This document shows positions 915 to 49,600 of a DNA stretch of 64,000 bases, piece after piece. The position numbers were made by a program, and so were the translations under genes. The stretch comes from Flavobacteriales bacterium (GTDB lineage Bacteria; Bacteroidota; Bacteroidia; NS11-12g; UBA9320): NCBI GenBank assembly GCA_020635395.1, contig JACJZV010000001.1, forward strand, positions 782,675-846,674, in the 5' to 3' direction. The first letter of the stretch is position 1; every line of letters starts with the position of its first letter. The notes beneath the pieces are model-generated. The model was not told the DNA's origin, did no database searches, and was given only the letters and a program-made list of their open reading frames with translations.

Positions 915-3332
915 CTAATTCTTTACGAATTTGGTTGTAGTCTCTTTTCCGTTTCTATCCATTATTCGAATAAAATAAATTCCCTCTGTTAGAGAAGACA
1001 CATCTATACTGTTTGCAGCTTTATTTTCGGACACTTTAACACCTTTTAAGTTAAATATCTGTACTTTTTGAACATCGATGTTCGATATGCTAATTACGTC
1101 CTTTGATGGGTTTGGATAAACCACGGGGTTTTTGTTAACTATTTGATCCACCTTTACCACTTCATCTTTCAATTGAGCTATCCATGCACCTCTACCGTAT
1201 GTAAAAATGTATAGTCTTCTGTCAGATTCACGAAGCCTAATCATAGAAATATATACATTTGGTATGCTTTCTTCTTTATACCAAAACTTACCTCCATCTC
1301 CGGTAACATACAAACCATAGTCTGTGGCAATCATAATGTTTTCGGTGTTTGCGGGGTCAACTTCAATCCAGTTTACAGGCAAACTTTGAGGAAGGTTTCC
1401 ACTAATATCAACCCATTCTGGATTGCTTGTGTTGGCATTGCGTACTTTCCATATTCTTGGCAGTGTGCTAATGTTGCTCATGGCCAAGTATATTGTTGAG
1501 TTTGTATCAGGGTCAATTTCAATATTGCCAATAAATCCACCTTTGGCGTTGGCAGGGGAGAGTGTGTACATTCTGAACTCAGATCCGGTGGTTGCCGTTT
1601 TTGCGTTGTTGATTCGGTATAAAATACTGCTGTATCCACCAAAATACAACGTAGGATTGTCTTCGGGTGTCATGCCCACCGAAAAGACACTGCCTGCTAT
1701 TTGATTGGTTAGCAATTGCCAATTATTTCCACCATTGATAGACCGAGCCAGATATTTTTTGGTTGGAAAATAAACCTGCATCCCATCTGTTGGGTTAATT
1801 TCGAAGGGATTTATAAACCAAAAATCTTGAGTTCCAACAGTGGCGGCCAAACTATTATAAATATTGAACCATGTGCCATTGCTCGAACGTCTTAAATTGC
1901 CGTTTTGCGAAGATGCATACAATATCTCACCTGTGTTGTCAATGGCATTAAAAGCCCCATCTCCAGAAAGAATTTGGCTAAAGCTGGAGCCACCGTTGTT
2001 GTTCATGGTTGTCCAATTATCTTGGGCTCCGGCCACAACTTCATCGCCCGTCGGTGAGTAAAATCCAGAATAAAACTGGGTAACATTATAACTGTAATTT
2101 AGGTCTATTACTTTTGAGGTAACCGTTGCCGTATTTAGTTTGTAGATGCCTCCATCGCATAACATCAAGAAATCATTCGAATTAGGAATAAAAGTTACGT
2201 TATGATAATCGGCGTGTCCGTTTTTCATCCTTCCCCAAGATTGGCCACCATTGCTCGAGTATCCAGGATCTTGTGCGGCACAAATCACAAAATCAGGATT
2301 GGTTGGGTGCACTCCTAAAGTAAAGCAATACCATGTAAAATCATAGCTAATACTTGATACTGGCATTGTAGTTGCAGCCCAATTTTCACCATAATCAATT
2401 GATTTGTATATGCCTATAATACCATCTCCGGCGGTATTTGCAAATGCGGCATAAATAATGTTCGAATCGCTTTCTGAAGCAGCCACCAAGCATCTATTAA
2501 AACTGGAGACAGGAATATTGAATTTTTGAACGGTAATATCATCCGCCTCGTCAAAATAATAGATTCCTTTTTTGCCACCGGCAATATACACTCTGCCATT
2601 TGGCATTGGGTCAACATCGCATGCCTCAGAGGCAGTATTGAATATTTGTTTGAACGTTTTGCCTTTATCTGTGCTTCTAAATAGACCTCCGGTTATGGAT
2701 GCCACATAGAATGTGTTGCTGTCGGTTTGCGAGTAGGCAATATCCCAAGTTTTGTCAAACGCAGTGATGTCAGAACCCTCTATTTGAAAAAACGATTTAC
2801 CCCCGTCTTCCGATTTAAAAATGCCGTTGCCGTCATAGTTTATATAAACTCCGGTTGAACGCTCGCCGGTGGAGTAGTAAATTTCATTGGGGTTAAAAGG
2901 GTTTTGGGTAATTCCTGTTACAGAAAGCGTGCTGGCCGCATCATCCACCGGAATCCAAGTTTTTCCGGCATCGTAGCTGTTCCAAATTCCTCCCGAAACA
3001 CCTCCGGCAATGAAATGGTTTGCGTTAGCCGCATCTACAATCAAAGCCCTTGTTCTCCCACCAATATTGGATGGTCCGAGCTCTTTTACTTCTTTAAAGA
3101 AATCTATTTTAGAGTGAAATTTTGGCGTTTGTGCATCCCATTGTTTCCATAATCCTCTCGGTATTTCGCCATTCTCATTTTGTTTGATTTGATAAAATTG
3201 CTCACCATATCCTGGATGTGTTTCCGGTTCAAAGTAACTCTTTTTACTTTTTACCGTAAAAAATAATGGCGAAACAATCAAAGAAGCTATCAATAACGTA
3301 ACCCCTAAATTTATTTTTTTTGAAATTATCAT
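915..3332 (-). CDS. Secreted BNR/Asp-box repeat protein (sortilin/Ycf48-like beta-propeller) with a T9SS type-A C-terminal sorting domain.
   Basis: There is an N-terminal signal peptide. Multiple S-x-D-x-G-x-T/S-W/F Asp-box motifs are present: SYDAGKTW, SEDGGKSF, STDKGKTF, SIDYGENW, SNGGQSWG, SINGGNNW, TGDGGKFW. The C-terminal about 80 aa (VYPNPSKDVISI...GIYFIRIMDRNGKETTTKFVKN) matches a Por/T9SS tail. Confidence 0.8.
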   Translation of the reverse strand: MIISKKINLGVTLLIASLIVSPLFFTVKSKKSYFEPETHPGYGEQFYQIKQNENGEIPRGLWKQWDAQTPKFHSKIDFFKEVKELGPSNIGGRTRALIVDAANANHFIAGGVSGGIWNSYDAGKTWIPVDDAASTLSVTGITQNPFNPNEIYYSTGERSTGVYINYDGNGIFKSEDGGKSFFQIEGSDITAFDKTWDIAYSQTDSNTFYVASITGGLFRSTDKGKTFKQIFNTASEACDVDPMPNGRVYIAGGKKGIYYFDEADDITVQKFNIPVSSFNRCLVAASESDSNIIYAAFANTAGDGIIGIYKSIDYGENWAATTMPVSSISYDFTWYCFTLGVHPTNPDFVICAAQDPGYSSNGGQSWGRMKNGHADYHNVTFIPNSNDFLMLCDGGIYKLNTATVTSKVIDLNYSYNVTQFYSGFYSPTGDEVVAGAQDNWTTMNNNGGSSFSQILSGDGAFNAIDNTGEILYASSQNGNLRRSSNGTWFNIYNSLAATVGTQDFWFINPFEINPTDGMQVYFPTKKYLARSINGGNNWQLLTNQIAGSVFSVGMTPEDNPTLYFGGYSSILYRINNAKTATTGSEFRMYTLSPANAKGGFIGNIEIDPDTNSTIYLAMSNISTLPRIWKVRNANTSNPEWVDISGNLPQSLPVNWIEVDPANTENIMIATDYGLYVTGDGGKFWYKEESIPNVYISMIRLRESDRRLYIFTYGRGAWIAQLKDEVVKVDQIVNKNPVVYPNPSKDVISISNIDVQKVQIFNLKGVKVSENKAANSIDVSSLTEGIYFIRIMDRNGKETTTKFVKN

Positions 3333-4401: not shown

Positions 4402-4512
4402 TTCTTTTAAAATTCGTGCGAATATAAAGTTTTACAACCTTTATTTAGGAGACGATGGTAAATTAAACCGAGGCCGCCAAAATCGGGTCAAAAACCAAAT
4501 GGACAAAAAAAA

Positions 4513-4540
4513 GGAGAGTTGAATTCAACTCTCCTTTTGA
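4513..4540. terminator. Bidirectional rho-independent terminator downstream of the giant adhesin gene.
   Basis: GGAGAGTTGAATTCAACTCTCC is a perfect 22-nt palindrome with an EcoRI site at its centre. It is flanked by A8 on one side and TTTT on the other, so the minus strand sees the hairpin followed by a T8 run. Confidence 0.6.
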
Positions 4541-4558: not shown

Positions 4559-7500
4559 TTAACGAGTTACGATAATGGTGTTTTTGTAAACAAAAGAACC
4601 ATTTTGGATTTCGATAAAATACAAACCTTCTGCTGTTTCGCCCAGTTCTACTTCAAATGTAGAAGTGTTTATATCATCAGAAGATTTAATTAAAGCACCT
4701 TTGGTGTCGTAAATATTAAATGAAATGTCGCCATTTTTTTGACCCACATTTACCACAAATTTTCCGTTGTTCGGATTTGGGTAAATTTGAATTCCATTTT
4801 CAATTTTATCAACTCCTAACAAGCTAATTTTAACTTGATTGCAAGAGGTAGATGCACAACCCAAATTGTCAACCACTTTGAGACATACGTTGAAACTTTG
4901 ATTGTTCACATTGTAATGATGTGATGGATTTTGATGCGTTGATGTTGCTCCATCGCCAAAATTCCAATTGTAGGTTGCTCCAGCAATATTTGGGGTAAAG
5001 TTTACATCTCTTCCTGCGGTTTTAAATGTAAATCCACTATTTGGCAATGGATTGATTGTCACATTTCTATCGCTGGTGTCTGAACATGTTCCGTTAGATG
5101 CAATCAATATCACTCGGTAAGTACCTTGTGTTGCATAGGCATGAGTCGCATTATTAGATGTTGCCGTGTTGCCATCGCCAAAACTCCAAGAAGCAGAAGT
5201 GGCATTGCGTGAGCTATTGGTAAACTGGGTTACATCTCCTTCACACACGTTTCCAACAATAAATGAAGCCATTGGGCTTTGTAGAACATTTATTGTTTTT
5301 GTGATTTCGTTGGTACAACCTTCAGTGCTGGCAATACTAAGCGAAACAACTTTTGAACCGCTGTTTGCATAATTGTGTGTTGGGTTTTGCAATGTGCTGG
5401 TTCCACCATCGCCAAAATTCCAATATGAAACAGCTGCCCCGTTTGAGGTATTTGTAAACGAAATATCTGTATTTTGACATCCACCGGTAGTTGAGAAATT
5501 GGCAACCGGTAAAGCAAATACTCTAACAGTAGTTGCTGCCATTGCCGTACAACCTACTTTATTTTCAACAGTTACAGAAACGTTGTAGGTTCCGGCAGAG
5601 CTGTAGATATGCGTTGGGGTCAATGCTCCGCTGGTGTTTCCATCGCCAAAACTCCATGATTTAACACCAGAGTTTGTGGTTGTTCCAAACGTGATAGAAT
5701 TACCCAAGCATACATCATTTGCCGAAATAGAAACACTTGGTGCATCAGCCACCGTTACACTTCTCAAAGTAGAAGAAACGCAGCCTTTGTCTGACGTTAC
5801 GGTAAGTCTTACTTGTCCGTATGTGCCGGCAGTTGCATAGGTATGTGTATTTGATGTGCCACTGTTTCCGTCTCCATATTCAAAGTTTGATGAGGCAATG
5901 CTACCACTGCTAATCGTACTATTGTCTGTAAATGTGGCCGTAGGCCCTGTGCAAAGTGCAGTTGCCGTAAACGATGCAACTGGATTTGGATTAACACTAA
6001 CCATTTTTGAGGTGGAAGATGTGCAGCCTTGAGCAGAAGTTACGGTTAAATTAACTGTATAATTTCCAACTGCGGCGTATGAGTGCATTGGACTAAATTG
6101 ACCACTTGATGTACCATCACCAAAATTCCAATTGCTTGAACCACCAACTGAAGTGTTGGTAAACGTTACTGCCGAGCCCAAACATGCATTATTTGCTGTA
6201 AAGTTTGCCGTTGGTGTTCCGCTGATAATTACCGTTTGTTGATATGTATTGCTACATCCGTTTGCATTTTTAGCGGTTAGGCTAACAACATAGTTTCCGG
6301 CTGCACTATACGTGTGACTTGGGTTTGCTGAGGTGCTTGTGCCGCCATCACCAAAATTCCAAGTGTAGGTAGTAGCCCCGCTTGAGGTGTTGCTAAAGGT
6401 AAGATTTGAACCTGAGCAACCACTTATTCCTGCAAACATGGCAATAGGTGCATCATATACAACAATGGATTTGCCAGTAGAAGCAATACAACCGTTGGAG
6501 TTAGTAACGGTAAGAGTTACATTATACGTACCTGCATTTGTATATGCGTGAGATGGATTGGTTGCAGTGCTTGCCGCACCATCATTAAAATCCCAGTAGT
6601 AGCTACCAGAACTGCTGTTGTTGCTGAAAGTTGCAGTATTTCCAACACATACGTTGGCCGTGCTGAAATCAGCCGTTGGGTTGCTATAAATAGTTACTGT
6701 TTTTGAAACTACAGAATTACAACCGCCAGCACCAATGCCGGTCAAGCTTACGGTGTAAGTGCCAGCCGAGGCATAGGTATATGTAGGATTAACAGATGTA
6801 GAAGTGCTTCCGTTTCCAAAATTCCAAGAGTATGAACTTGCTCCTCCTGAAAGATTTGTGAAAGTTGTTACCACACCAAGACAGTTGTTAGAAACCGAGA
6901 AGTCTGTTGTAGGCTTATCGTTTACTACTACATTTTTAGAAATCGTGCTGCTGCATCCGTTGGCTGTTGCTGTTAATGAAGCAGTATAATTTCCGGCGGA
7001 TGCATAGGTATGCGAAGGATTTGAAACACTTGAAGAAGAGCCATCACCAAAACTCCAGGTATAGGTCAATGTTCCAGAACCAACAGAGCTACTGTTGGTA
7101 AAGACTGTGGCACTGCCCAAGCAGGCGGTGTTTGCTGTAAAGGCTGCCGTTGGCATTGCGTTTACATTGTGCATTACGTTGGCCGTATCAGCACATCCGT
7201 TTGAGTTTTGTGCAACAAACATTACATTATACGAACCGGCAGCGGCATAGGTATGAGATGGTGACTGACTTGTTGAAGTATTGCCATCACCAAAATTCCA
7301 ATGATAATTAGATGCTCCGGTGCTTGTGCCAACAAAGTTTGAAGTAGTACCGATGCACACATCAGAAACAGTTATTGCTGCGGTTGGGTTGTCATAAATT
7401 GTTACTGTTTTACTTACGGTTCCCGCACAGCTTCCTGTGCCTGTAGCGGTAAGACTTACCGTATAAGTTCCAGCTGCGGTATAAGTGTGTGTTGGATTGG

Positions 7501-10500
7501 CCTGGGTACTTGTGTTTCCATCGCCAAAATTCCAAGAATAACTTAATGTGCCAGAGCCTCCTGAGGTATTGTTTGTGAAATTAGTGGTAGAACCCAAACA
7601 ACTGTTTGTTGTTTGGAAATTAGCCACCGGATTATCATAAACTACCACAGAATTTGTGGAAGTATCACCACAACCATTTATCGAATATACTGCAAGAGAA
7701 ACAGTATAAGTTCCGGCATTTGCATAGTTATATGTTGGGGCGGCTGAGCTGAATGTTGTTCCGTCACCCATATTCCAAGTATAAGAAATGGCACTTGTAG
7801 AACTGTTTGTTGCAGTAAAACTGCTGCCTTTGCACATATCCGAAATGCTGAACGAGGATACTGGATTTGAGTATGACTCAACGGCAGCCGTGAAGGTATC
7901 TTTACACCCATTGTTATTATAGGCATATAAAGATGCCGTATAATTTCCAGAAGCTCCGTAGGCGTGGCTTACATTGGTTGCGGAAGACGTAGAAGTGTTT
8001 CCATCACCAAAATTCCAAACATAGTTGTGGGCATACAGCGAACCATTGACAAATGGAGTGGCAGTATTTACACATCGATTGTCAACCGAGAAATAGGCAA
8101 ATGGACGCACTTTTACGGTCACACTTTTCGTGGTTGTGTCATTACAACCATTGCCATCGGCAGAAATTAAGGTTACATTGTATGTTTGAGCTGCCCGATA
8201 GAAATGAGTCGGATTTTCTTGAGTACTCGTTGTATTGTCGCCAAAACTCCAAGAATATGAATATGCATTTGTTGATGAGTTTACGAATTTCACACTATCT
8301 CCAAAACATACGTCATTTGCAGTAAAACCAGAGGTAGCTTTAGGCAAAACGGTAACCGTTTTCGTTACAGAATCTTTAAATCCTCCTGGTAGGAAAATTT
8401 TAAACTTAACAGTATAGGTTCCAGAAGAAGCATATTTGTGAACAGGATCTTCAAGTGTAGAGGTTGTTCCATCGCCCAATTCCCAAAGGAAAGCGTTGAT
8501 TTTTCCGCAATTTACAGAAGTGGTGTTTTTAAATCTGGAAGAATCATCTTTACAGTCGTAAATAGCATAAAAAGTTGGAACCGGAGCGTTTGACACGTTT
8601 ACAGTTCCTGTTGCCGAGTCTTTACAACCAATATTGGTGGTGGCAATAAGTTTAATGTTCTTAACGCCGCTTGATGCGTATGTATAACTTGGTACAGCGG
8701 CAGTGCTGCTGTTTCCATCTCCAAAATTCCAAAGGTATCCAGTGATTGAACCACTGCTTACACTGGAATTGTTGGTTATTGGCATTACATCGTTAAAACA
8801 ATGAGGTGTTGCAACAAAGGAAACATTCGGTAGCGGTGCAATACTAACTTTAACTGAGTTGGTAGGTTTTGTGCCACATCCGGCTCCCGAAATAGTATTT
8901 CTTCTATAAAACATTGCATTAGTCAACGAAGAAGTTGAATTGTACGAAGCAGAAGTTGCACCGCTGATATTACTCCAAGTTGCATTGTCGTTCGACTCTT
9001 GCCATTGGTAGGTATATGTTCCGTTGCCACCTGTAGCTGCACTTGTTTGGTTAAGTGTGTTTGGAGTTCCATTCGGACAAACAGAGTGAGGATTTCCAAC
9101 CAAACCTGCATACAAATCATTGTAAACATTAATGGTTACAGTATTACTATATACCACACCACATGATGAACCTCCGGTGTATCTCAATCTGTAATATCTT
9201 GTTGCGGTAAGAGCCGATGGGTTGTATGAGTTTGAGGTTGCTCCACTAATATTGCTCCAAGTGCTACCGTTTGATGATAACTGCCACTGCAACGTCCAAG
9301 AGCCATCGCCACCCGTTGGTACTGCCGATTCAGAAATTGAAGAAGGCACGGTGTTGTAGCAGATTGTTTGGTCAGAACCAATCGTTCCGGCCATTAACTC
9401 ATCTCGCACAGTAACTTTTATTGAAGCAGAATATTCTGGGCCACAACCAACATTGGTGGTAACACCTCTTCTAAAATAGGTTGTGGTTGTCAAATTTCCG
9501 GAAGAATAGGTTGCACCCATTGCACCTGAAATATCGCTCCAAGCAGCGTTATCAGCAGATGACTGCCATTGATAACCATAAGTGCCCGCACTACCAGATG
9601 CCGGTGTTGTATTGCCAAAAGTGCTTGGCATTGAATTGTAACAAATGGTTTGATCTCCAGATATAGAGCCGGCAATCAATGCTGTTAATACATTGATGCT
9701 TCGAGCCGTGGTATCTTTACATCCATTGTTTGTTGTGCTGCTAATGCTCACATTGTAGCTTCCACTGGAGGCGTATGTGTGATTTGTATTGTTACCTGTT
9801 CCACTTGTTGCGTCTCCAAACATCCAATAAGTAGAAACAATAGAACCACTTGAAACCGTGCCAGTTGATGAAAAACTCATAGCACTGCCAAAACATGAGT
9901 CTGCATTGGCAAACGATGAAACCGGATTTGGCCAGTATGGCACAACTATACCTGCACTACTATTGGCAGAGTTTACATCATCTCCTGTGTAGGTTACGGT
10001 AATGGAATTGTCGGTTGTTCCACTCAAATCTACTGTAGTAGAAAGGGTTTGAGTGTAGGTTGCACCGGCAGCAAATGTTCCGGTAACGGTTTCTGTGTAG
10101 GTGGTTGTTCCATCTACTACAATAGACAATGGAATATTTGATAATATAAGGTTGCTATTGTTTTTAAATGTAACAGTTATTGGTGCCGCATTCTGATTGC
10201 TTCCACAAACTGTGTCAGAGGCAACCGAAATAAGAGCAACGTCCGGCAATAGTTCAAAAGCTCCAATAGTTGGCGTAGCTCTGCGAGTTACTTGCTCAAT
10301 ATCATCCGATACAGAGGCAGTAGTTCCTGCTTCGAAATGTTCCAAACTATTTATATGATAATCGTTTGTGGCATTAAAATCAGGATTTACGCTAATAGAG
10401 TTTTGCTCTATGGTAGTATAGTTGGACTGATATGAAGCCAAAGTACTATAGCTCGAGCCAGCACTAATCAGTGTACTTCCAGAAGTGTAATAGCTATTAT

Positions 10501-13500
10501 TATTTATAGCCGAAAATAGGGTTGGGTCGCCATAATATGCTGCAGTTCCACCACCAACATTTGCAAAAATATTGTTGGTAATTTCGTTGCCGGTGTAGTT
10601 TGAATTAATTGATGTATATAGAGCTGCCCAAGCTGTTGATACGTAACTGCTGGTAAGAACAATAGTGTTGTTCGATAAAACTTGATTGTTTGATGAGTAA
10701 AAATCTACCCCATCTACAGAATTGCTTGAACTGCCAATTTGAACAAAGTTGTTTGCAATTAACCCTTTGTCGGTTGATGTTGCATCGCAGGCGTTAAAGT
10801 ACATGCCAATTCCATCACCTAATCCCGTAACCTTGTTTCCAATAATGCGTTGTGCACCATCGCTAAAATAACAATAAATTCCGTAGAGACTTGAGTATGA
10901 TGAGGTCGTAGAAATGGTATTTCTCAATACAGCAAGATCTTGAGTGTAGAAAGAGTAAATACCATAATAGTAAAAATCGGTAATGATGTTGTCTTTAATC
11001 ATCCAATTTTTTTGCAAAGAACTTGATGATCCACCATAACAATAAATGCCATAGCTACCATTTAATAATTCATTGTTGGAAATGGTTACGCTATCAGACA
11101 CGTTTGATACACCTGAGTTATCAAAAATTAGTGCATAGTTGCTGGAAGTCGATGATACAACAGGGCCAACAATTTTTGAATTTTGAACCGTAATGTTATT
11201 ATTCGTACCATTAAATACAACAATACTTCCGCGAGAAGTGCCTGTGGCCACCATATTGAAACTATCAAAGGTAATATGGTTAATGTCTTTAAATAATACG
11301 ATATAATTATCCGATGATGAACTGGACGAATAGGTAATGGTAGGCATTCCAGAACCAACAAACCGAATGGTGTTGACGGCTGAAGTACCCAAAATTTTTG
11401 TGCCGTCCAAATTGATGTTTTCATTGTAGGTGCCTGGTTGAACAGTAAACGTAATAGGTCCTGAAATTCCTGCACACTGAAGGGCATCCACCGCAGCTGT
11501 GAAGTTGGGGTAGGTTCCGGTTGAACCAATAGTGTAATTGCCTCCAGCCAACGGAACACCGAAACTAGAAGAATTTGAATCGTTAATGGTAATTACATCC
11601 GCAGAGCCATTTGGGTCGCTTGTCCAGGCAGTAAGTTGACTACATCCGGCTGATATAGACGCAGTGCCTGAGAAGGTCAACGTGTCTGATTGGCAACTTG
11701 CCAAAGAAATAGTAAATGTCTCGGTGGTAGTGCTGCCACCATCAACCGAAAAGTTTCCTTTAACACTTGTCAAAGTTGAAGATCCATAATTTCGAACCGC
11801 AATTTTTACCACCTGATTGCCAGCAGCAACTACGCCGTTAGGGCTTAAAATAGAAGTTACTCCTGCGTCTAAACTACCGTTTATTGTTTCATCAGCACCG
11901 GGGAAAGTAGTTGTTGTGCCACGTGAATCTCCATCAATATCGGTGGAAACAGAAGATAGTGCGGGCATTTTTACAAAACAAGGATCTACTAAATGAAAAT
12001 CAGTTGCAGATACAAAATTTGGCATTTGAAAAACAGAGTTCCCATCAAGGCTTGATGAGCTTACAAAGCCGGCTAAAGTGCTATTGAGGCTAATTCCATC
12101 ATAAAACATGTCTGAAGTTGAGTTGCCATAAAACACGTTGTAATCTGAGGTTAAATAAGATACGCCTGATACGTAGATTAAATATCCCTGTCCGGAGTTA
12201 ACAATAATGTTGTTTTTTAATTCAGTTCCAACATAGGTAGAACTGCTACAATAAATATACACTGTTGGGTAGGATGAAGAATTGTAGGAAGAGTTATCGA
12301 CAAAAGTGTTATGGTAAACATTTTGATAGCTACATCCGTATAAATAAAGGGCTCTTGCCGAATTGGATGCATTGTCTCCAACAACTACAATGTTGTTTGC
12401 AATTAAACCTGGTAAAGTGCTGGTGGCATCAGAATAAGAGATATACAAACCGTAGTTTTTTATTGTTATTTGGTTTCCAGTAATTTTTAGGTTTCCGTCA
12501 CCGTAAGATGAATAAATACCGTAGGTGCTGGTTGACGAACCAATGAATTTGTTGTTGTTTACAACCGAGTTATTATGATAATAGCCGTACAATCCAGCAT
12601 AATAGAAGTCTTTGATGGTGTTGCCTGTTATGGTCCAATTGTCTTGCAACGCAGTGGTTGATGACCCATACATATATATACCATATGAACCATACAAAAT
12701 TTCATTGTCTTTAATAAGCACGTTTGTAGATAGTGAACTGCCCGTTTCATCGTAAATTGTAGAGGAAGTAGCGGTTGATGTGCTTACAACAGGTCCCTCA
12801 ATTTTGCAGTTTTTGATGGTAATATTGCCGTTTGAGCCACCAAAATAGAAAGCTGGAGCGGATGTTCCGGTTTGGATAACGTTTATCCCGTCAAAAGCAA
12901 CATAGTTGGTGTTTTGCAACTTTATGGTTGCACCAGAGGCATTTTTCAAAACTGGCATCGTGCTGTTTGTTGGGTCGCTAACAAAGGTAATGGTGTTGCT
13001 TGAAGAGGAGCCTACAATAGCAGGAATAAAAACGTCTTCAGTATATGTGCCACTTCTTACTTTAAGAGTTACTGCACCCGAAATGCCCGCACAATTTAAA
13101 CCATCTATTGCTTCCGTAAAGTTTGCAAAATCTGGCGATGAACCACCAATAGTATATGTGCCGGACATTGCCACCCCAAAACTAGTTGAAGCACTATCGT
13201 TTGAGATTTTTGTGTCCGAAGCCCCACCGGGATTGCTTGACCACGCGGTCAAGGATTTACAACCAACGCTATGATTAAAAGTAGAGCTAAAAGTAACGGT
13301 ATCGTTGGCACAACTTGACAAGGTAGTGGACATGTTTTGATTAACAACCGACCCACCTGAGGGCAAATAACTAACAGTATAACCATTAACGGTGTTTAAA
13401 CCATAATTACGAACTACAACCTTTACAGTTTGTGTTCCTGAGCTAACGGTTCCGGAAGGTGTTAATATTTCGGCAACCCCTATATCGTTGTTTCCTTGAT

Positions 13501-15922
13501 AAACCTCATCACATCCTGGGTGAGTAACAGATGGGTTTCTGCTTGCTCCATCAATATCCGTTGTAACGGCCGATAGTGCAGGCACTCTGTCAAAACAAGC
13601 ATCACTCAAATGTAAGTCTGTACTACTAATAAAAGGAGGAAGTTTTTCGAAAGAATTTTGGTCATAACCCGATTTTGCACTTTGATAGGCGGCTACATTT
13701 GAATACGAAGCTCCCGCATAAACCACGTTGCTACTACCAACACTATAATAGATATTGTAATCTAAGGCGTTATAATAATTGGTGGTGCCACTGTAGTAGA
13801 GATACACCGCATATCCTCCGACGGTGTTAACAAATATATTATTCACTACATCATTTCCACTATATGTAGCAGATGAATAGCTAAAGTAACCCGCAACGTA
13901 AGTAGTTCCTGTTGTGGACGGAGTTGATGTCACCACGCAAGTATTGTGGTAAAACTTTTGATAACTGCTGCTAAGCGAATAAATAGCTCTTGCGGCATCA
14001 GTACCTGAATTTCCAACTCGAATACTATTGTTAATAAAATAGGCCGGTGCCACAGAAGAAGCGTCGCATGAACTATGATAAATGCCATATCCCCTATACA
14101 CGTCTATTTTATTTTCAGATATCATGTTTGCTCCATCAGAGTAAGCCAAGTATAGACCGTAGAGTGCAGAACTATAGGTGCTATTTGATGAAATAGTATT
14201 ATTTGAGACAGTAATGTCCTGAGTGCTATAGTTGTAGATACCATAGTAGTCAAAATCTGTACAGGTATTTCCTGTTATTTGCCAACCTTTCTGCAAGCTG
14301 GTTGTAGATATACCATAGTTGTAGATGCTTGCAGAACCATATAGAAGAACATTGTCTTTTATGATAATGTTGGTGTCCGTTGATGTTGAAGGTGAATAAA
14401 TCAGAGCTGCATAGTTGGAAGAAGAACTGGGTTTTTTCCCTTCAATGGTACAATTCTGAATCGTTATATCGCCACTGTTTTGGTCGAAAGAAACAACCCG
14501 ACAATAATACCCATCCAAACCCTTTAAGTGCAAATTGTTTAAAATATAGTGTGATGCATTATAAAAAAGTATTGTCCAATCATCAGTAGTACCCGTAGCA
14601 TCATACTCTATTATTGCTTTGCTGGTGGCTGATGGGTCGGTTTGAATGGTAATGGTGTTGGTGGCCGACTGCCCCGGCACATTTGTTATAGTATGTTGCC
14701 CTGTATAGGTGCCGGCTGCAAGATTTAGAACAACGGGGCCACAAAGCCCATTGGCCAATGCTGTCTTGGCCGCATCAATGGTTGCAAAATCACTGCTGGA
14801 TGTGCCAACGGTGTATGTTCCGCTCATGCCCGGTACAAAAGTTTTTTGCAACGTATCGTTCGCGGGTTTTCCATCCGAAGTGGAGTTCGGATTTTTTGTG
14901 TAAACAACAAAATTACTCGAACTACCGCTGTAGGTATAGGGTCCTAAATTGATGACAATAGAGCTATTTGGAGTCAATGTGCCGGTATGATTATAGGTGT
15001 TTTGTGAGGTGCCATTTACTGACCATTCCACATCAAAACTTGTCACATTGTTGTTTCCCTCGTTGGTTACTTCAATTTTTATACTATCTGTAGAATTACA
15101 AATTGCATCGCTTGGATTAACAAAAGAAGAAACAGCTACATCATTAGAAACCAAAAATTTCGGCTCAAAAATATGGTATTCGTTGTCGGATGCAGAACTA
15201 CCGCCACTACCATAAATAATATTTGGAGAGCCAGCCGATGAGTTGATTCCTGTGGTTACATCGACATAAGTGGAAGAGTTGAGCTGAACGCCTGCAGTTA
15301 GGCTTGGGGTGCCGTTCAGGTAATAGTTCTGATCAACGATGTAAATATTGTTGGTGCCTTCTTCCAAAACCACGGCCCAATAGGCATAAGACATGTTACC
15401 GATGGCATAAGAGAAGTTTTGAATCCACAACTGCCTGCTGCCAGTGCTGCCAAAAACAAAAGTATAAACATTGTCGCCTGTGCTTCTGGTAGCCACATTT
15501 TCCCAGAAATAGGCAATAGTGCTGTCGGGCAAATTACTGTTTGGTAAAGCCGAATTCGAGTTCAGAGAGCTGTTTACCTGAGTTCCAGCCACTGAGGTAC
15601 TAAACGTAAGCAAACCGTTTTGAGAAACACAAAAAGAGTCAACTGTGCCGCCATAAAACTTAAATGTAAACGGAATGGGAATAGCCAACGACCAATAATT
15701 GGTACTGGTGTAAGAACCTGTAGAACCGCCGGGGCCTTGATTGTAAGCCATAATAACTGTTCCACCAGTGGATGTAGCATCGGAACTAGTTCGCACGCCA
15801 CCGGGATTTCCCACGTTCTGGTTTGAGTTGGTTTGGGTGTAGATCCATTGTGCTTGAGCGTTTTGGTTGGTAAAAAGCAAAAACGCCACAAACACGACCA
15901 ATAAGTTGAAAAATTTCTTCAT
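4559..15922 (-). CDS. Giant (3787 aa) secreted multidomain adhesin-like T9SS cargo protein. It has an N-terminal domain, three right-handed beta-helix modules, three YQWQ Ig-like modules, about 17 PKD domains and a T9SS type-A CTD.
   Basis: A single uninterrupted 11.4-kb ORF with an ATG start. Signal peptide: MKKFFNLLVVFVAFLLFTNQNAQA. Three paralogous modules begin MSGTYTVG... / MSGTYTIGGSSPDFANF...C.GISG / LAGGNYTIGSTGTYPNF...CAGISG; each contains NN-I/V-x-N repeats and DxCF..MPALS.V.TDIDG.SR motifs. Three modules carry TICYN...YQWQ.S.DN..W..ISGAT. The recurring WNFGDGNTST..NPSHTY motif is the PKD signature. The C-terminus YPNPNNGKFVVN...GLYFIEIQNGSFVYKNTIIV is a T9SS tail. Confidence 0.9.
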   Translation of the reverse strand: MKKFFNLLVVFVAFLLFTNQNAQAQWIYTQTNSNQNVGNPGGVRTSSDATSTGGTVIMAYNQGPGGSTGSYTSTNYWSLAIPIPFTFKFYGGTVDSFCVSQNGLLTFSTSVAGTQVNSSLNSNSALPNSNLPDSTIAYFWENVATRSTGDNVYTFVFGSTGSRQLWIQNFSYAIGNMSYAYWAVVLEEGTNNIYIVDQNYYLNGTPSLTAGVQLNSSTYVDVTTGINSSAGSPNIIYGSGGSSASDNEYHIFEPKFLVSNDVAVSSFVNPSDAICNSTDSIKIEVTNEGNNNVTSFDVEWSVNGTSQNTYNHTGTLTPNSSIVINLGPYTYSGSSSNFVVYTKNPNSTSDGKPANDTLQKTFVPGMSGTYTVGTSSSDFATIDAAKTALANGLCGPVVLNLAAGTYTGQHTITNVPGQSATNTITIQTDPSATSKAIIEYDATGTTDDWTILFYNASHYILNNLHLKGLDGYYCRVVSFDQNSGDITIQNCTIEGKKPSSSSNYAALIYSPSTSTDTNIIIKDNVLLYGSASIYNYGISTTSLQKGWQITGNTCTDFDYYGIYNYSTQDITVSNNTISSNSTYSSALYGLYLAYSDGANMISENKIDVYRGYGIYHSSCDASSVAPAYFINNSIRVGNSGTDAARAIYSLSSSYQKFYHNTCVVTSTPSTTGTTYVAGYFSYSSATYSGNDVVNNIFVNTVGGYAVYLYYSGTTNYYNALDYNIYYSVGSSNVVYAGASYSNVAAYQSAKSGYDQNSFEKLPPFISSTDLHLSDACFDRVPALSAVTTDIDGASRNPSVTHPGCDEVYQGNNDIGVAEILTPSGTVSSGTQTVKVVVRNYGLNTVNGYTVSYLPSGGSVVNQNMSTTLSSCANDTVTFSSTFNHSVGCKSLTAWSSNPGGASDTKISNDSASTSFGVAMSGTYTIGGSSPDFANFTEAIDGLNCAGISGAVTLKVRSGTYTEDVFIPAIVGSSSSNTITFVSDPTNSTMPVLKNASGATIKLQNTNYVAFDGINVIQTGTSAPAFYFGGSNGNITIKNCKIEGPVVSTSTATSSTIYDETGSSLSTNVLIKDNEILYGSYGIYMYGSSTTALQDNWTITGNTIKDFYYAGLYGYYHNNSVVNNNKFIGSSTSTYGIYSSYGDGNLKITGNQITIKNYGLYISYSDATSTLPGLIANNIVVVGDNASNSARALYLYGCSYQNVYHNTFVDNSSYNSSSYPTVYIYCSSSTYVGTELKNNIIVNSGQGYLIYVSGVSYLTSDYNVFYGNSTSDMFYDGISLNSTLAGFVSSSSLDGNSVFQMPNFVSATDFHLVDPCFVKMPALSSVSTDIDGDSRGTTTTFPGADETINGSLDAGVTSILSPNGVVAAGNQVVKIAVRNYGSSTLTSVKGNFSVDGGSTTTETFTISLASCQSDTLTFSGTASISAGCSQLTAWTSDPNGSADVITINDSNSSSFGVPLAGGNYTIGSTGTYPNFTAAVDALQCAGISGPITFTVQPGTYNENINLDGTKILGTSAVNTIRFVGSGMPTITYSSSSSSDNYIVLFKDINHITFDSFNMVATGTSRGSIVVFNGTNNNITVQNSKIVGPVVSSTSSNYALIFDNSGVSNVSDSVTISNNELLNGSYGIYCYGGSSSSLQKNWMIKDNIITDFYYYGIYSFYTQDLAVLRNTISTTSSYSSLYGIYCYFSDGAQRIIGNKVTGLGDGIGMYFNACDATSTDKGLIANNFVQIGSSSNSVDGVDFYSSNNQVLSNNTIVLTSSYVSTAWAALYTSINSNYTGNEITNNIFANVGGGTAAYYGDPTLFSAINNNSYYTSGSTLISAGSSYSTLASYQSNYTTIEQNSISVNPDFNATNDYHINSLEHFEAGTTASVSDDIEQVTRRATPTIGAFELLPDVALISVASDTVCGSNQNAAPITVTFKNNSNLILSNIPLSIVVDGTTTYTETVTGTFAAGATYTQTLSTTVDLSGTTDNSITVTYTGDDVNSANSSAGIVVPYWPNPVSSFANADSCFGSAMSFSSTGTVSSGSIVSTYWMFGDATSGTGNNTNHTYASSGSYNVSISSTTNNGCKDTTARSINVLTALIAGSISGDQTICYNSMPSTFGNTTPASGSAGTYGYQWQSSADNAAWSDISGAMGATYSSGNLTTTTYFRRGVTTNVGCGPEYSASIKVTVRDELMAGTIGSDQTICYNTVPSSISESAVPTGGDGSWTLQWQLSSNGSTWSNISGATSNSYNPSALTATRYYRLRYTGGSSCGVVYSNTVTINVYNDLYAGLVGNPHSVCPNGTPNTLNQTSAATGGNGTYTYQWQESNDNATWSNISGATSASYNSTSSLTNAMFYRRNTISGAGCGTKPTNSVKVSIAPLPNVSFVATPHCFNDVMPITNNSSVSSGSITGYLWNFGDGNSSTAAVPSYTYASSGVKNIKLIATTNIGCKDSATGTVNVSNAPVPTFYAIYDCKDDSSRFKNTTSVNCGKINAFLWELGDGTTSTLEDPVHKYASSGTYTVKFKIFLPGGFKDSVTKTVTVLPKATSGFTANDVCFGDSVKFVNSSTNAYSYSWSFGDNTTSTQENPTHFYRAAQTYNVTLISADGNGCNDTTTKSVTVKVRPFAYFSVDNRCVNTATPFVNGSLYAHNYVWNFGDGNTSTSSATNVSHAYGASGNYTASLYAYNNNGCKDTFTAAVESYSNPVSSFSISDMCKGSSFTATNSSTSAISYTWNMGDGTTFSSAAPTYNYANAGTYTVSLAVYSINGCGDTSTNSVVVYDNPVANFQTTNSCLGSTTNFTNNTSGGSGTLSYSWNFGDGNTSTQANPTHTYTAAGTYTVSLTATGTGSCAGTVSKTVTIYDNPTAAITVSDVCIGTTSNFVGTSTGASNYHWNFGDGNTSTSQSPSHTYAAAGSYNVMFVAQNSNGCADTANVMHNVNAMPTAAFTANTACLGSATVFTNSSSVGSGTLTYTWSFGDGSSSSVSNPSHTYASAGNYTASLTATANGCSSTISKNVVVNDKPTTDFSVSNNCLGVVTTFTNLSGGASSYSWNFGNGSTSTSVNPTYTYASAGTYTVSLTGIGAGGCNSVVSKTVTIYSNPTADFSTANVCVGNTATFSNNSSSGSYYWDFNDGAASTATNPSHAYTNAGTYNVTLTVTNSNGCIASTGKSIVVYDAPIAMFAGISGCSGSNLTFSNTSSGATTYTWNFGDGGTSTSANPSHTYSAAGNYVVSLTAKNANGCSNTYQQTVIISGTPTANFTANNACLGSAVTFTNTSVGGSSNWNFGDGTSSGQFSPMHSYAAVGNYTVNLTVTSAQGCTSSTSKMVSVNPNPVASFTATALCTGPTATFTDNSTISSGSIASSNFEYGDGNSGTSNTHTYATAGTYGQVRLTVTSDKGCVSSTLRSVTVADAPSVSISANDVCLGNSITFGTTTNSGVKSWSFGDGNTSGALTPTHIYSSAGTYNVSVTVENKVGCTAMAATTVRVFALPVANFSTTGGCQNTDISFTNTSNGAAVSYWNFGDGGTSTLQNPTHNYANSGSKVVSLSIASTEGCTNEITKTINVLQSPMASFIVGNVCEGDVTQFTNSSRNATSASWSFGDGNTATSNNATHAYATQGTYRVILIASNGTCSDTSDRNVTINPLPNSGFTFKTAGRDVNFTPNIAGATYNWNFGDGATSTHQNPSHHYNVNNQSFNVCLKVVDNLGCASTSCNQVKISLLGVDKIENGIQIYPNPNNGKFVVNVGQKNGDISFNIYDTKGALIKSSDDINTSTFEVELGETAEGLYFIEIQNGSFVYKNTIIVTR
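4950..8740 (-). repeat. Tandem array of about 17 PKD-domain-encoding repeat units with a period of about 235 bp, inside the giant adhesin gene.
   Basis: The plus-strand string CATCGCCAAAATTCCAA (antisense of W-N-F-G-D-G) and close variants recur at about 4951, 5173, 5405, 5641, 6113, 6343, 6583, 6813, 7043, 7283, 7515, 7763, 7993, 8231, 8471 and 8713. Confidence 0.85.
10370..14830 (-). repeat. Three diverged tandem units of about 1.6 kb that encode the beta-helix modules of the giant adhesin. Boundaries are approximate.
   Basis: At protein level the module starts lie at about aa 366, 919 and 1458, which map to about 14827, 13168 and 11551. Each has the same order of landmarks: G-x-YT-I/V-G, C-x-GISG, beta-helix repeats, then DxCF...TDIDGxSR. 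Confidence 0.55.
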
Positions 15923-26808: not shown

Positions 26809-26827
26809 TTTATAAAAAGAAACAAAA

Positions 26828-46634: not shown

Positions 46635-49600
46635 TTAGTCTCTAACCACGGTAATCGTTCCGCTGTATTTCTCAATTTCGGCATCGTCAATGCAGCCTTC
46701 TCTATATCTTAAAATATAAAAATAAGTTCCACCCGGGCATGGCACATCGGTGTTCATCACGTTTCCATTCCAATTAAGCCCCGAGCCGTATTCGGTATCT
46801 TGTTTTGCTCTATACATAAGTTCGCCCCAACGGTTATAAATGGATAATTCATAAAAATCTTCTCCCTCCATTTCAATGTCGTATTCATCATTTAGCCCAT
46901 CCTTATTTGGGGTAATAATGTTCGGAATCATCATTTCAAACCCGTGTTCGTTTTCAATGGTCTGTGTGGCTGTGTCGAGGCATCCTTCTTTGCTTTTGCT
47001 AATTAATGATACCTCAAATTTGCCCTTGTCTGGGGCATAATTGTGACTTGAATTTTTTTCAAAACTCAAGTTTTTGTGACCGCTGGCCGGATGTCCGAAA
47101 TCCCAAGTGGCCTCACCACCTTCTACCAATATTGCCGAAAAATGATACAACGGACAAAGTGAATCTTTGGTGAAGCTAAACTCGGCTTTATTGTCAAAAA
47201 CGTTAAACTCTTTTGTAATACTATCATAGCAAGCACGTTGATACGGACCAGTGGGAGTGTATATTGGCCGATATGAGATTACCACTTTTCCGGTATCTTT
47301 AAAAACAGCACTTGCAGGTCTGCTGCCAAACGAAATAGCTGAATCGTTTGGCCAATACCAACGATAAATTTTATAAATGGGGTCGGATTTATCTATTAAT
47401 TCTACTGTTTGGTTTCGACAAATATGTCCATCAATTTCAAAATCCACTTCAGGAATAGGAAGAATTATGACTCTCCGCACATCATGAATCGGAGCTGCCG
47501 AGTCTGGATAAAAAGCATTGCAGTAATATACATTATTATTGTTGTCGGGATTAACCACACTATCACCGGCATAGAGATAGATGTTGTATATGCCGGGTTT
47601 TGTGTATGTGTGATGTACGTTTGAATCTGATTTCGTACTCAACGAATTGTTTAATGAGGCCGTGTCGCCAAAATACCAGACATAATCTGACGAGTGGGTT
47701 GAGTTGTTTTTTAATTCAACGGTAAATGGGGTACAGGCCACAGTGTCCGAAATAATATCAAAACGAGGAATGGGGCCTTCAATACGAATTGTTGTATAGG
47801 CCGTATCTTCACATCCGGTGGTGTTTTTGATAACATGGGTAATGGTAAAATCGCCAAAACTTTTATATAAATGAAAAGGATTTTTTAAAAAACTGGGTGT
47901 GTATCCATCGCCAAAATCCCAGAAGTGAAAAATAATGCTGTCGTTTTGAATGTCATTCACCTTAGATGAATCAAACAGCTGAATAATATCATCACAAAGC
48001 AGTTTTTTGCTAATATTTTTAATGCCAGCGGCTATGTCTGCCACCTCAATGTATTTTACCATTGTGTCTATACAACCGCGGCTATCAGCTGATACCATCG
48101 TAATTTTATGTTTTCCCAACGAATCAAACTGATGCACCGGAAGAGGGCCTTTCACTTTGTCAAATCCGGTTCCTTCGCCTATTTCCCATTTTATTGTCTC
48201 AATAAGGTTGTTCGGTTTTCGCCAATATTGGGTGGTGTCGTGCCAGTAGGTAATGGTGTCGAAAAACTGTACCGACGTGCCGGGACACACGGGGGTTGGG
48301 AATAAAAAGTTGTTATAAAAACCTATTTCAGTACTTGTGTATCCATCGGACGTGCATCCAGAATCGGTTTCTAAAACCCATGTACATTCCACTTTTTTGG
48401 AGCGATAATAAATATGCTCAAACTTTGGCAGTGGGCCAAAACCCGCCGGAATATCAATGGTGTCGGCATCTTCGCCTTTATTCCATGTCACCATTATTTT
48501 TCGCACATCGGGTTGGTTGCGAACGTAGAGCTCGCCAATTAATTTAAACGGCAAACAACCTGAGTCGGAGAATTTGGCTTGGGCAAAAGGAGTGGGGTTT
48601 AACCTAAAGGCTCGGTGATACCAAAATGTATCTTGGCACTTTCGTGAGGGGTCAAGATAATAGTCATTTGGATCGCACGACCTCCAAATAGTGTCGTATC
48701 CGGTTTGAGCCAAAATGCCGTAAGTAACCCATCGACTTGTATCGCACGTTTTGCTATATTGTTTGGGCGATTCAAACTGTTCAAAATTATTTTTACCGCA
48801 GGCCGAATCGAAGTTTATCAGAATTTTGCTATAACAAGATCCCGAACTAAATCGGACATCCGTTTGCAAACAATTTTTGTCAAGATTTGCTGTAAAATCT
48901 TCCGGTACCGGTTTTTTCATCGAAATTTTGAGAACAGTGCTATCCGAACAACCGTGCAATGGGTCGCGGGCAATCAGTTTTGCCTCGCCGCAAAAGCTGG
49001 AGTCGTAAAAGTGTTTTCCATCAATATCTACCGAAAAATTGCAGTTAGCGTTTTTGTTTATATTTTGCTTTGTGTTGGTGGTGCAGGCGGGGGCGTGTGG
49101 GTCGTTAAACTTCCACAAATACTGCACCGTTCCTGTTCTATATGTCAGTGTTTTGTTGCAGAAATAAACGGTATCTTTTGGGTCGCATTGTTTTTCGTTA
49201 AACAATTTGGCATTAGCTTTAACACCTATGGAGTATATCGAATCGTATGTAAAACTGATACAATCTCCTTTTTTTACCCTCAACTCAATGCGATACTTTC
49301 CCGGAAATTCTGGAAAGAAGAAAGATTCCCTATTGTTGCCAAAGTTGTAAACAAAATTGCCCGAAGAGTCAATAGCGGCCCATTTGTATTCTGCCCCAAA
49401 TATGGGAGTATGCTCAAAACTGAAATAATTGGGATAGCACAAAATGCTGTCCTTTTTTATGATTTTTAAATCTACTTTGTTCAGGTCAACATTTATAAAT
49501 TTTCGATAGTTTACCACACAGCCGTTTTTAAAAGTGGCCGTTACATCCACCGGATAGTTTCCCGATTTGTTGTATTGATGCGATATTTTGGGGGTTTTAA

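What the first reader, a model, noticed from the sequence alone, without database searches (positions are those of the whole stretch)
4559..15922. 11.4-kb single-ORF T9SS adhesin built from nested tandem repeats
A single uninterrupted 3787-codon ORF encodes a secreted T9SS cargo protein assembled from nested tandem repeats.

Domain order:
- A signal peptide.
- An N-terminal domain of about 360 aa.
- Three paralogous beta-helix modules of about 540 aa. Each has a G-x-YT-I/V-G ... C-x-GISG head and a DxCF..MPALS.V.TDIDG.SR tail.
- Three modules of about 95 aa built around TICYN...YQWQ.S.DN..W..ISGAT.
- About 17 consecutive PKD domains, each carrying WNFGDGNTST..NPSHTY.
- A T9SS type-A CTD.

At the DNA level, the PKD section is a tandem array with a period of about 235 bp and long stretches of near-identity; the 17-mer CATCGCCAAAATTCCAA recurs on the plus strand.

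Inference:
- Such arrays are hotspots for recombinational expansion and contraction, so the gene probably varies in length between strains.
- The three beta-helix modules suggest triplicated carbohydrate-binding or lyase-like units on one stalk. This module combination is not a standard described adhesin type.
Basis: seen in the sequence. Interest (0 to 1): 0.5.

Follow-up and report, generated by a model that had tools for sequence, protein, structure and literature searches.

The report
Giant T9SS surface fibril protein
This is a real 3,787-residue surface protein gene from an uncultured Flavobacteriales-like bacterium, with a long stalk of old, diverged PKD domains carrying three beta-helix modules and an unclassified tip domain; it is an unusually large but ordinary member of the Bacteroidota giant-adhesin class, and it is not a fast-changing repeat locus.

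Summary
The ORF is real: window 4559..15922 on the minus strand, 3,787 aa, with its own terminator.

Domain order:
- signal peptide
- a 235-aa N-terminal beta-sandwich with no Pfam or NCBIfam model and no solved relative
- a CARDB-like Ig domain
- three modules, each a ~440-aa right-handed beta-helix plus a ~100-aa CARDB-like Ig domain
- one PKD domain
- three 94-aa Ig-like "YQWQ" modules
- 17 PKD domains
- a T9SS type A CTD

The DNA claims fail. TRF finds no array. PKD units are 55% identical on average at the DNA level (maximum 65%). The longest exact direct repeat is 19 nt.

An ortholog in MAG UBA6063 (3,821 aa, 49% identity) aligns end to end with no gap longer than 6 aa, so every module count is conserved. 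The recombination-hotspot and length-variation inference is therefore not supported.

Best reading: a non-catalytic, multivalent, glycan- or surface-binding fibrillar adhesin anchored through the T9SS. Interest is low to moderate.

The parts
15851..15922 (-). Sec signal peptide, aa 1-24 (MKKFFNLLVVFVAFLLFTNQNAQA|Q)
   Evidence: Read directly from the translation: a basic n-region, a hydrophobic core and an AQA|Q cleavage motif. No SignalP run was possible.
15146..15850 (-). N-terminal ~235-aa beta-sandwich domain (aa 25-259); an unclassified family and the probable distal tip
14837..15145 (-). CARDB-like Ig domain 0 (aa 260-362)
   Evidence: Pfam CARDB scores 22.2 bits against a cutoff of 22.7. 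It is paralogous to aa 812-915 and 1352-1457.
13490..14827 (-). Right-handed parallel beta-helix module 1 (aa 366-811)
   Evidence: Pfam Beta_helix scores 37.0 bits (cutoff 25.9) and NosD 36.8 bits (cutoff 23.6). It is 41% identical to module 2.
13178..13489 (-). CARDB-like Ig domain 1 (aa 812-915)
   Evidence: Pfam CARDB scores 17.7 bits, below the cutoff. Paralogy is shown.
11870..13168 (-). Right-handed parallel beta-helix module 2 (aa 919-1351)
11552..11869 (-). CARDB-like Ig domain 2 (aa 1352-1457)
   Evidence: Pfam CARDB scores 23.5 bits against a cutoff of 22.7.
10208..11542 (-). Right-handed parallel beta-helix module 3 (aa 1461-1905)
   Evidence: Pfam NosD scores 23.5 bits against a cutoff of 23.6. 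It is 34-38% identical to modules 1 and 2.
9923..10207 (-). Divergent CARDB-like Ig domain 3 (aa 1906-2000)
   Evidence: The module 2 to module 3 BLAST alignment extends to aa 1967. Pfam hits are only weak.
9680..9922 (-). Isolated PKD domain (aa 2001-2081)
   Evidence: It is one of the 18 Pfam PKD_4 stretches. The unit is listed.
8831..9679 (-). Three 94-aa Ig-like 'YQWQ' modules (aa 2082-2364)
   Evidence: Register is shown. Paralogs are 39-42% identical and UBA6063 orthologs 63-66%. There is no Pfam hit. 222 homologs were found, many carrying Ig_7, SprB or PKD_6 labels.
4823..8830 (-). Array of 17 consecutive PKD domains (aa 2365-3700), the stalk
   Evidence: Pfam PKD_4 scores 728.6 bits. 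Units are listed.
4562..4786 (-). T9SS type A C-terminal sorting domain (aa 3713-3787)
   Evidence: PF18962 scores 40.8 bits (cutoff 27) and TIGR04183 30.7 bits (cutoff 23).
4505..4538 (-). Intrinsic terminator hairpin plus T-run, 20 nt after the stop codon
   Evidence: The sequence AAAAGGAGAGTTGAATTCAACTCTCCTTTTTTTT folds into a 13-bp stem.

Best explanation
The gene encodes a ~394-kDa, acidic (pI ~4.6), Ser/Thr/Asn/Gly-rich cell-surface fibril protein of an uncultured Flavobacteriales/Bacteroidia bacterium.

Inferred pathway, from established T9SS biology:
- The Sec system exports it using the N-terminal signal peptide.
- The T9SS recognises the type A C-terminal domain and moves the protein across the outer membrane.
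- The CTD is removed and the new C-terminus is attached to the cell surface.

Inferred geometry:
- The C-terminal two fifths (17 PKD domains, preceded by three Ig-like modules and one further PKD domain) form a stalk.
- The stalk holds the N-terminal 2,000 residues roughly 100 nm from the cell, if the protein is extended.
- That head consists of an unclassified 235-aa beta-sandwich tip domain followed by three right-handed beta-helix modules. CARDB-like Ig domains separate and flank the modules.

The head most likely acts as a multivalent, non-catalytic binder of glycans or polymer surfaces. In that respect it resembles the pneumococcal beta-helix adhesin PfbA and the beta-helix/Ig adhesin-like proteins of methanogens.

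All repeats are ancient duplications held at a fixed copy number. They are not a variable array.
For: Shown:
- The ORF, signal peptide, CTD and its own terminator.
- The domain map.
- The beta-helix fold at high confidence.
- The closest solved sequence relative of the module profile is the adhesin PfbA (3zpp E 1.9e-9; 4mr0 E 3.5e-8). PfbA has a lyase-like groove but no detected lyase activity (PMC3718772).
- Across 25 family modules, and across 8 close modules, the conserved positions in the helix body are an Asn ladder plus Gly, Tyr and Ile. Conserved charged residues lie only in the C-terminal cap motif D-I-D-G-x-x-R...G-A-D-E.
- No CAZy-type Pfam family is hit.
- The neighbouring genes are housekeeping genes, with no SusC/D or PUL context.
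- The architecture meets the published criteria for fibrillar-adhesin-like proteins: a tandem stalk plus a Por_Secre_tail anchor.
- Other CTD cargo genes in the same window show that the host uses the T9SS.

Stability of the repeats:
- The UBA6063 ortholog is 3,821 aa, collinear, with a largest gap of 6 aa.
- Identical DNA was recovered in an NCBI MAG and in a Logan assembly whose contig was seen in 2 samples.
Against: - No binding or localisation data exist.
- The fold neighbours of the beta-helix are mostly polysaccharide lyases, hydrolases, epimerases and phage depolymerases, so catalysis is not excluded.
- I could not map conserved residues onto the 3D model.
- An Asp in a [CSN]-D-[AN]-[TSP]-S motif is invariant among the 8 closest modules.
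- No known adhesive domain is detected. The N-terminal domain is of unknown function.
- Type A CTD cargo can also be released into the medium rather than anchored.
Confidence: 0.6

Rival explanations
1. It is a surface-tethered, triple-catalytic polysaccharide depolymerase. Each beta-helix module would be a lyase, hydrolase or epimerase, and the PKD stalk would only space them from the cell.
For: - One Asp is invariant in the helix body of the 8 closest modules.
- Many T9SS cargo proteins are glycanases (general knowledge).
Against: - No Pfam or NCBIfam enzyme family is hit.
- No acid/base set is conserved across the 25-sequence family alignment.
- The best sequence-level PDB relative is the non-catalytic adhesin PfbA.
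- There is no PUL or SusC/D context.
- Identity to the enzymes is only 9-17%.
Confidence: 0.2
2. It is a contingency-type adhesin whose PKD array expands and contracts by recombination, so gene length differs between strains.
For: There is a tandem arrangement of 17 PKD units with a 231-243 bp period. Among distant family members the number of beta-helix modules ranges from 1 to 4.
Against: - TRF finds no array.
- DNA identity between units averages 55% with a maximum of 65%, and the longest exact repeat is 19 nt.
- The ortholog at 49% identity has identical module counts and no gap longer than 6 aa.
- Positional orthologs are the best match for 13 of 18 PKD units and 3 of 3 YQWQ modules.
- Identical sequence was recovered in independent assemblies.
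Confidence: 0.03
3. It is a SprB/RemA-type gliding-motility adhesin propelled along the cell surface.
For: It is a giant repetitive T9SS cargo protein in a Bacteroidota genome. The YQWQ modules give a very weak SprB-repeat hit (15.3 bits).
Against: - The SprB repeat score is below the cutoff of 28.
- The CTD is type A (Por_Secre_tail), not the type B/CHU_C kind that SprB uses. A CHU_C protein does occur elsewhere in the window, at 46635..50369.
- No sprF/porP-like partner gene is adjacent. The neighbours are an SDR and a glyoxalase.
Confidence: 0.05
4. It is an assembly or annotation artefact, such as a chimeric or collapsed repeat region in a MAG.
For: The source is a metagenome-assembled genome.
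Against: - The reading frame runs uninterrupted for 11.4 kb.
- The repeats are too diverged to collapse.
- The DNA is identical in the NCBI MAG and in the Logan assembly.
- A collinear ortholog of the same length exists in an unrelated MAG.
Confidence: 0.01

Closest known systems
Fibrillar-adhesin-like (FA-like) proteins of Bacteroidota with a T9SS CTD anchor (Monzon, Lafita & Bateman 2021, PMC8286594)
   Same: It is a single very long chain with a tandem stalk of Ig-like (PKD) domains, a Por_Secre_tail anchor at the C-terminus and a non-stalk head at the opposite end.
   Different: No domain from the known adhesive-domain list is present. The head is an unclassified N-terminal domain plus three beta-helix/CARDB modules.
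PfbA, the plasmin- and fibronectin-binding beta-helix adhesin of Streptococcus pneumoniae (PDB 3zpp, 4mr0; PMC3718772)
   Different: PfbA has one helix, an LPXTG anchor and an electropositive groove. Here there are three helices, a T9SS CTD and a net acidic charge (13-17 Lys+Arg against 30-32 Asp+Glu per module). The relationship is distant.
[quoted passage not shown]
   Same: They have the same grammar: repeated right-handed beta-helix domains (up to seven per protein), arrays of Ig-like 'big' domains and an anchor.
   Different: They are archaeal, with a membrane anchor instead of a T9SS CTD and different Ig families. No direct homology was tested.
Uncharacterised family Nterm-CARDB-[beta-helix-CARDB]n-(Ig_7/PKD)-CTD in uncultured Bacteroidota (e.g. 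the UBA6063 ORF in L001, P0001, P0004, P0006, L006)
   Same: These are true homologs. UBA6063 has the identical architecture at 49% identity. P0001 has at least 3 helices. Others have 1, 2 or 4.
   Different: Most members are 0.9-1.6 kaa with a single helix and a short stalk. The window protein and its UBA6063 ortholog are the long, triple-helix, 18-PKD form.
SprB / RemA gliding adhesins of Flavobacterium johnsoniae
   Same: They are giant repetitive T9SS-secreted surface proteins of Bacteroidota (general knowledge).
   Different: Here the CTD is type A rather than type B, no SprB repeats pass the cutoff, and there is no adjacent sprF-like gene.
Beta-helix polysaccharide lyases, hydrolases and epimerases, and NosD
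   Different: Identity is 9-17%. TIGR04247 NosD scores 26.5 bits against a cutoff of 300. No catalytic residue set is conserved, and there is no nos or PUL context.

Membership tests
T9SS type A CTD cargo | Por_Secre_tail / TIGR04183 domain at the extreme C-terminus | tested here: met
   PF18962 scores 40.8 bits (cutoff 27) over aa 3713-3784 of 3787. TIGR04183 scores 30.7 bits (cutoff 23).
T9SS type A CTD cargo | N-terminal Sec signal peptide | tested here: met
   MKKFFNLLVVFVAFLLFTNQNAQA|Q was read from the translation. This is by inspection only; no predictor was available.
T9SS type A CTD cargo | The host encodes and uses a T9SS; secretion is T9SS-dependent | not testable with these tools
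   The evidence is indirect. Three other CTD-bearing genes lie in the window (915..3332, 46635..50369, 53715..55157). No core T9SS gene was seen in the 64 kb.
Fibrillar-adhesin-like protein (PMC8286594) | Stalk of tandemly repeated domains | tested here: met
   There are 17 consecutive PKD domains plus 3 Ig-like modules.
Fibrillar-adhesin-like protein (PMC8286594) | Surface anchoring motif or domain | tested here: met
   The paper counts Por_Secre_tail as an anchor, and it is present here.
Fibrillar-adhesin-like protein (PMC8286594) | A known adhesive domain, usually at a terminus | tested here: not met
   No Pfam adhesive domain was found. The N-terminal domain has no model.
Right-handed parallel beta-helix (Pfam Beta_helix/NosD, PbH1) | Family HMM above the gathering score | tested here: met
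   Module 1 scores 37.0 (Beta_helix) and 36.8 (NosD). Module 2 scores 51.2 and 40.5. Module 3 scores 23.5 on NosD against a cutoff of 23.6, which is borderline.
Right-handed parallel beta-helix (Pfam Beta_helix/NosD, PbH1) | Beta-helix fold | tested here: met
Beta-helix polysaccharide lyase / glycoside hydrolase | Match to a catalytic family model (PL1/3/6/9, GH28 and similar) | tested here: not met
   No such Pfam or NCBIfam hit appears even at E<=1.
Beta-helix polysaccharide lyase / glycoside hydrolase | Conserved catalytic acid/base (and Ca2+) residues in the groove | tested here: inconclusive
   No charged column reaches 60% conservation in the helix body across 25 modules. One Asp is invariant among the 8 close modules. 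3D mapping was not possible.
NosD (nitrous-oxide reductase maturation) | TIGR04247 above cutoff, and a nosZ/F/Y neighbourhood | tested here: not met
   TIGR04247 scores 26.5 bits against a cutoff of 300. The neighbours are unrelated.
SprB-type gliding adhesin | SprB repeats, a type B (CHU_C-like) CTD and an adjacent sprF/porP-like gene | tested here: not met
   SprB scores 15.3 bits against a cutoff of 28. The CTD is type A. The flanking genes are an SDR and a glyoxalase.
Recombination-prone / length-variable repeat gene | Near-identical DNA repeats long enough for homologous recombination | tested here: not met
   TRF reports 0 arrays. Maximum unit DNA identity is 65% and the longest exact repeat is 19 nt.
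Recombination-prone / length-variable repeat gene | Copy-number differences between relatives | tested here: not met
   The UBA6063 ortholog has the same 3+3+18 module counts and a largest gap of 6 aa. No conspecific second strain could be retrieved.
PfbA-like beta-helix adhesin | Detectable sequence and fold homology of the helix to PfbA | tested here: met
PfbA-like beta-helix adhesin | Binding to host or matrix glycoproteins | not testable with these tools
   This needs an experiment.

The most novel reading that the evidence does not exclude
The unclassified N-terminal beta-sandwich has about 12,000 cluster representatives, sits almost always directly after the signal peptide, and has no Pfam model or solved relative. 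Together with the CARDB/beta-helix cassette, it may define a previously unrecognised, widespread class of T9SS 'head' modules with a specific shared function. One example would be a new glycan-recognition or glycan-cleaving unit that uncultured Flavobacteriales use on particles or algal surfaces. The triple-helix giant would then be a multivalent version of that unit.
Probability: 0.15. Interest if true: 0.5.

Novelty: new member of a known kind. Interest (0 to 1): 0.25.

Why it matters
Giant T9SS surface proteins are probably how many uncultured Bacteroidota attach to particles, polymers or other cells, yet almost none outside SprB and RemA have been studied.

This case adds three things:
- A clean domain map.
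- A counter-example: long PKD arrays need not be unstable. Copy number is frozen across about 50% sequence divergence.
- A pointer to a large N-terminal domain family that has no model and could be given one.

It does not open a new mechanism.

Tried and rejected
- Tandem Repeats Finder on the gene found nothing.
- PDB sequence searches with the single beta-helix, N-terminal and YQWQ segments gave nothing useful.
- hhalign of the YQWQ modules against Ig_7 regions of homologs gave probability 3%, which is inconclusive. I therefore call the YQWQ modules only 'Ig-like, Ig_7/SprB-neighbourhood'.
- The NCBIfam ZirU hit on the YQWQ modules is far below its cutoff (28 bits against 100) and I ignored it.
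- The afdb50 fold library was unavailable.
- A metagenome-contig scan found no relative.
- I tried to recover a second, conspecific MAG. Its GroEL and the 805-aa neighbour are 100% identical, on a 1.47-Mb contig. The attempt failed: the look-up of encoding contigs returned only the source MAG and the Logan contig. A true strain-level comparison was therefore not possible.
- The search for homologous proteins returned neither the query itself nor any relative longer than 1.6 kaa, although the protein is in the collection. Absence of close giant relatives in that search is therefore uninformative.
- The NosD, SprB, artefact and contingency-locus readings were considered and rejected, as set out in the membership tests.
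- No Bacteroidetes-type TAnnTTTG promoter motif was found in the 263-bp upstream region. The promoter remains undefined.
Full report
**Observation.**
The window contains one uninterrupted ORF at 4559..15922 on the minus strand, encoding 3,787 aa. A 263-bp intergenic region lies upstream. A strong hairpin plus T-run terminator follows the stop codon at 4505..4538, so the gene looks like its own transcription unit.

The product is 47% Ser, Thr, Asn and Gly. It is acidic (pI about 4.6) and about 394 kDa after signal-peptide removal.

**Domain map.**
- Pfam finds 18 PKD stretches and a C-terminal Por_Secre_tail domain above its cutoff. NCBIfam TIGR04183 agrees.
- Segment-against-whole BLAST shows three paralogous modules (aa 366-905, 906-1450, 1451-~2000) that are 34-41% identical.
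- Each module divides into a ~440-aa core and a ~100-aa domain. That ~100-aa domain also occurs once before the first module, at aa 260-362.
- Scanned separately, cores 1 and 2 pass the Pfam Beta_helix and NosD cutoffs. Core 3 misses the NosD cutoff by 0.1 bit.
- The ~100-aa domains sit at or just below the CARDB cutoff.
- Between the third module and the main PKD array lie one PKD domain and three 94-aa modules with the TIC..YQWQ..W..ISGAT motif (aa 2082-2364). These modules match no Pfam model.
- The three 94-aa modules have 222 homologs. Many of those proteins carry Ig_7, SprB, PKD_6 or Ig_3 labels.
- A direct profile comparison of these modules with Ig_7 regions was inconclusive.

**DNA-level claims.**
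- The 17-mer occurs three times on the + strand. It is simply the antisense of the W-N-F-G-D codons.
- Tandem Repeats Finder reports nothing.
- Repeat copies are 60-75% identical.
- The 18 PKD units average 39% amino-acid identity (maximum 59%) and 55% DNA identity (maximum 65%).
- The longest exact direct repeat in the whole ORF is 19 nt.

There are no long stretches of near-identity.

**Relatives and stability.**
The exact protein is GenBank MEZ4845389.1, annotated 'PKD domain-containing protein [Bacteroidia bacterium]'. It comes from MAG GCA_041391645.1. The same DNA also appears in a Logan assembly of SRR12358676, on a contig seen in two samples.

The GTDB-representative scan returned one relative, a contig of Bacteroidetes bacterium UBA6063. 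It carries a 3,821-aa ORF that is 49% identical and collinear over the full length. In a global alignment the largest gap is 6 residues. Hence 3 beta-helix modules, 4 CARDB-like domains, 3 YQWQ modules and 18 PKD domains are all conserved.

The YQWQ modules are 63-66% identical to their positional orthologs and 34-46% identical to all non-orthologous YQWQ modules in either protein. Thirteen of the 18 PKD units are closest to their positional ortholog.

All duplications therefore predate the split of the two lineages, and nothing has been gained, lost or homogenised since. This is the opposite of what a recombination hotspot predicts. A conspecific strain comparison could not be obtained.

Among more distant family members the beta-helix+CARDB cassette occurs 1 to 4 times. 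Copy number has therefore changed, but only on deep timescales.

**The beta-helix modules.**
An AlphaFold model of module 2, built on a 25-sequence family alignment, is confident (pLDDT 92.9, pTM 0.93). It is a canonical right-handed parallel beta-helix.
- Further hits are AlgE4, PL6 and many phage depolymerases.

Fold alone cannot separate enzyme from binder. Two observations lean toward binder.
- A profile of the module family finds PfbA as its best PDB match by sequence (E 1.9e-9). PfbA has a lyase-like groove but no catalytic arrangement and no detectable lyase activity, and it was proposed to be a glycan-specific adhesin (PMC3718772).
- The conserved columns in the helix body form an Asn ladder (N155, N183, N206, N232, N259, N287, N320, N344 in module 2 numbering) plus Gly, Tyr and Ile. 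Conserved charged residues occur only in the C-terminal cap motif.

No CAZy-type family is hit, and the gene's neighbours are housekeeping genes.

One Asp is invariant among the 8 closest modules, and I could not inspect the 3D positions. I therefore leave about 20% for a catalytic role.

**The N-terminal domain.**
Residues 25-259 match nothing in Pfam or NCBIfam, and none of 23 family members does either. A confident model (pLDDT 92.7) is a beta-sandwich.
- Foldseek finds no significant hit.
- A PDB profile search finds nothing.

Yet an HMM of the family detects 11,841 cluster representatives (604 at E<=1e-30). In most of them the domain sits directly after the signal peptide, in proteins of 0.3 to 5.7 kaa. 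The partner domains vary and include Omp28, SprB repeats, BNR_assoc_N, CBM48 and beta-helices.

Because the CTD end is the cell-proximal end, this domain is the distal tip and the most likely primary contact point. Its function is unknown.

**Mechanism (inferred).**
The expected path is Sec export, T9SS translocation through the type A CTD, CTD removal, and attachment to the surface. The 25 Ig-like domains and three ~6-nm helices would span roughly 100 nm if extended. This would present one tip domain and three Tyr-rich beta-helices (31-45 Tyr per module) as a multivalent binding head.

The PKD and YQWQ domains carry about two Cys each (34 Cys in the 17-PKD array, 2 per YQWQ module). This is consistent with one disulfide per domain in an extracellular stalk.

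In the comparison with the UBA6063 ortholog, the helices (35-46% identity) and the CTD (38%) are the least conserved parts. The stalk (55-69%) and the tip (56%) are better conserved.

**Comparison with known systems.**
- The protein meets the stalk and anchor criteria of fibrillar-adhesin-like proteins but lacks a known adhesive domain (PMC8286594).
- Its grammar of several beta-helices plus Ig repeats plus an anchor parallels the adhesin-like proteins of methanogens (PMC11532034).
- It is not a SprB-type gliding adhesin. The CTD is type A, no SprB repeats pass the cutoff, and there is no sprF neighbour.
- It is not NosD and not a recognisable CAZyme.

**Verdict.**
This is a genuine and well-assembled gene, and an unusually large example of a known kind. 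The lyase idea is unsupported but not excluded. The most reusable by-product is the unmodelled N-terminal domain family.

Noticed in passing
window 15146-15850 (-); alignment A2: An N-terminal ~235-aa beta-sandwich domain has no Pfam or NCBIfam model and no solved structural relative. It nevertheless has 11,841 50%-identity cluster representatives, nearly always directly after the signal peptide of T9SS-type proteins with varied partner domains. It is a candidate new domain family.
   Followed up: partly
window 915-3332 (-), 46635-50369 (-), 53715-55157 (-): There are three further T9SS cargo genes in the same 64 kb. One is a BNR/Sortilin protein with a type A CTD. One is a 1,244-aa protein with four PKD domains and a CHU_C (type B) CTD. 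One is an esterase with a type A CTD.
   Followed up: partly
window 18610-19497 (-) and 18172-18591 (-): A 295-aa protein consists essentially of a PT-HINT/Hint domain and is followed by a 139-aa ORF with no family. It may be an orphan polymorphic-toxin or intein-like remnant with an immunity gene.
   Followed up: no
window 22755-31582 (+): A gene row starts with a multihaem cytochrome c7-like protein and a 1,041-aa molybdopterin/4Fe-4S protein. It looks like an alternative complex III cluster. Only the first two genes were scanned.
   Followed up: no
window 34783-38139 (-): This 1,118-aa protein's only Pfam match is to WG_beta_rep repeats.
   Followed up: no
window 51307-52551 (+): A C-5 cytosine DNA methylase is fused to an N-terminal MerR-type HTH domain.
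   Followed up: no
L006 10001-22976 (+): In ENA scaffold ERZ19028581 scaffold_759, two adjacent called genes (1,205 aa and 3,114 aa) are one ~4.3-kaa relative broken inside its third beta-helix. It has four beta-helix+CARDB cassettes and no N-terminal domain.
   Followed up: partly
The word-indexed homolog search returned neither the query protein, although it is in the collection as P0310, nor any hit longer than 1.6 kaa. For the 286-aa query no hit was longer than 501 aa. Long relatives seem to be under-sampled, so 'no close homolog' from that tool should not be trusted for giant proteins.
   Followed up: no
window protein aa 366-811 versus L001 ORF: Beta-helix module 1 is the fastest-evolving part, at 35% identity to its positional ortholog. 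It is closer to the ortholog's module 2 (42%) than to its module 1 (36%). This could reflect diversifying selection or an old exchange between modules.
   Followed up: no
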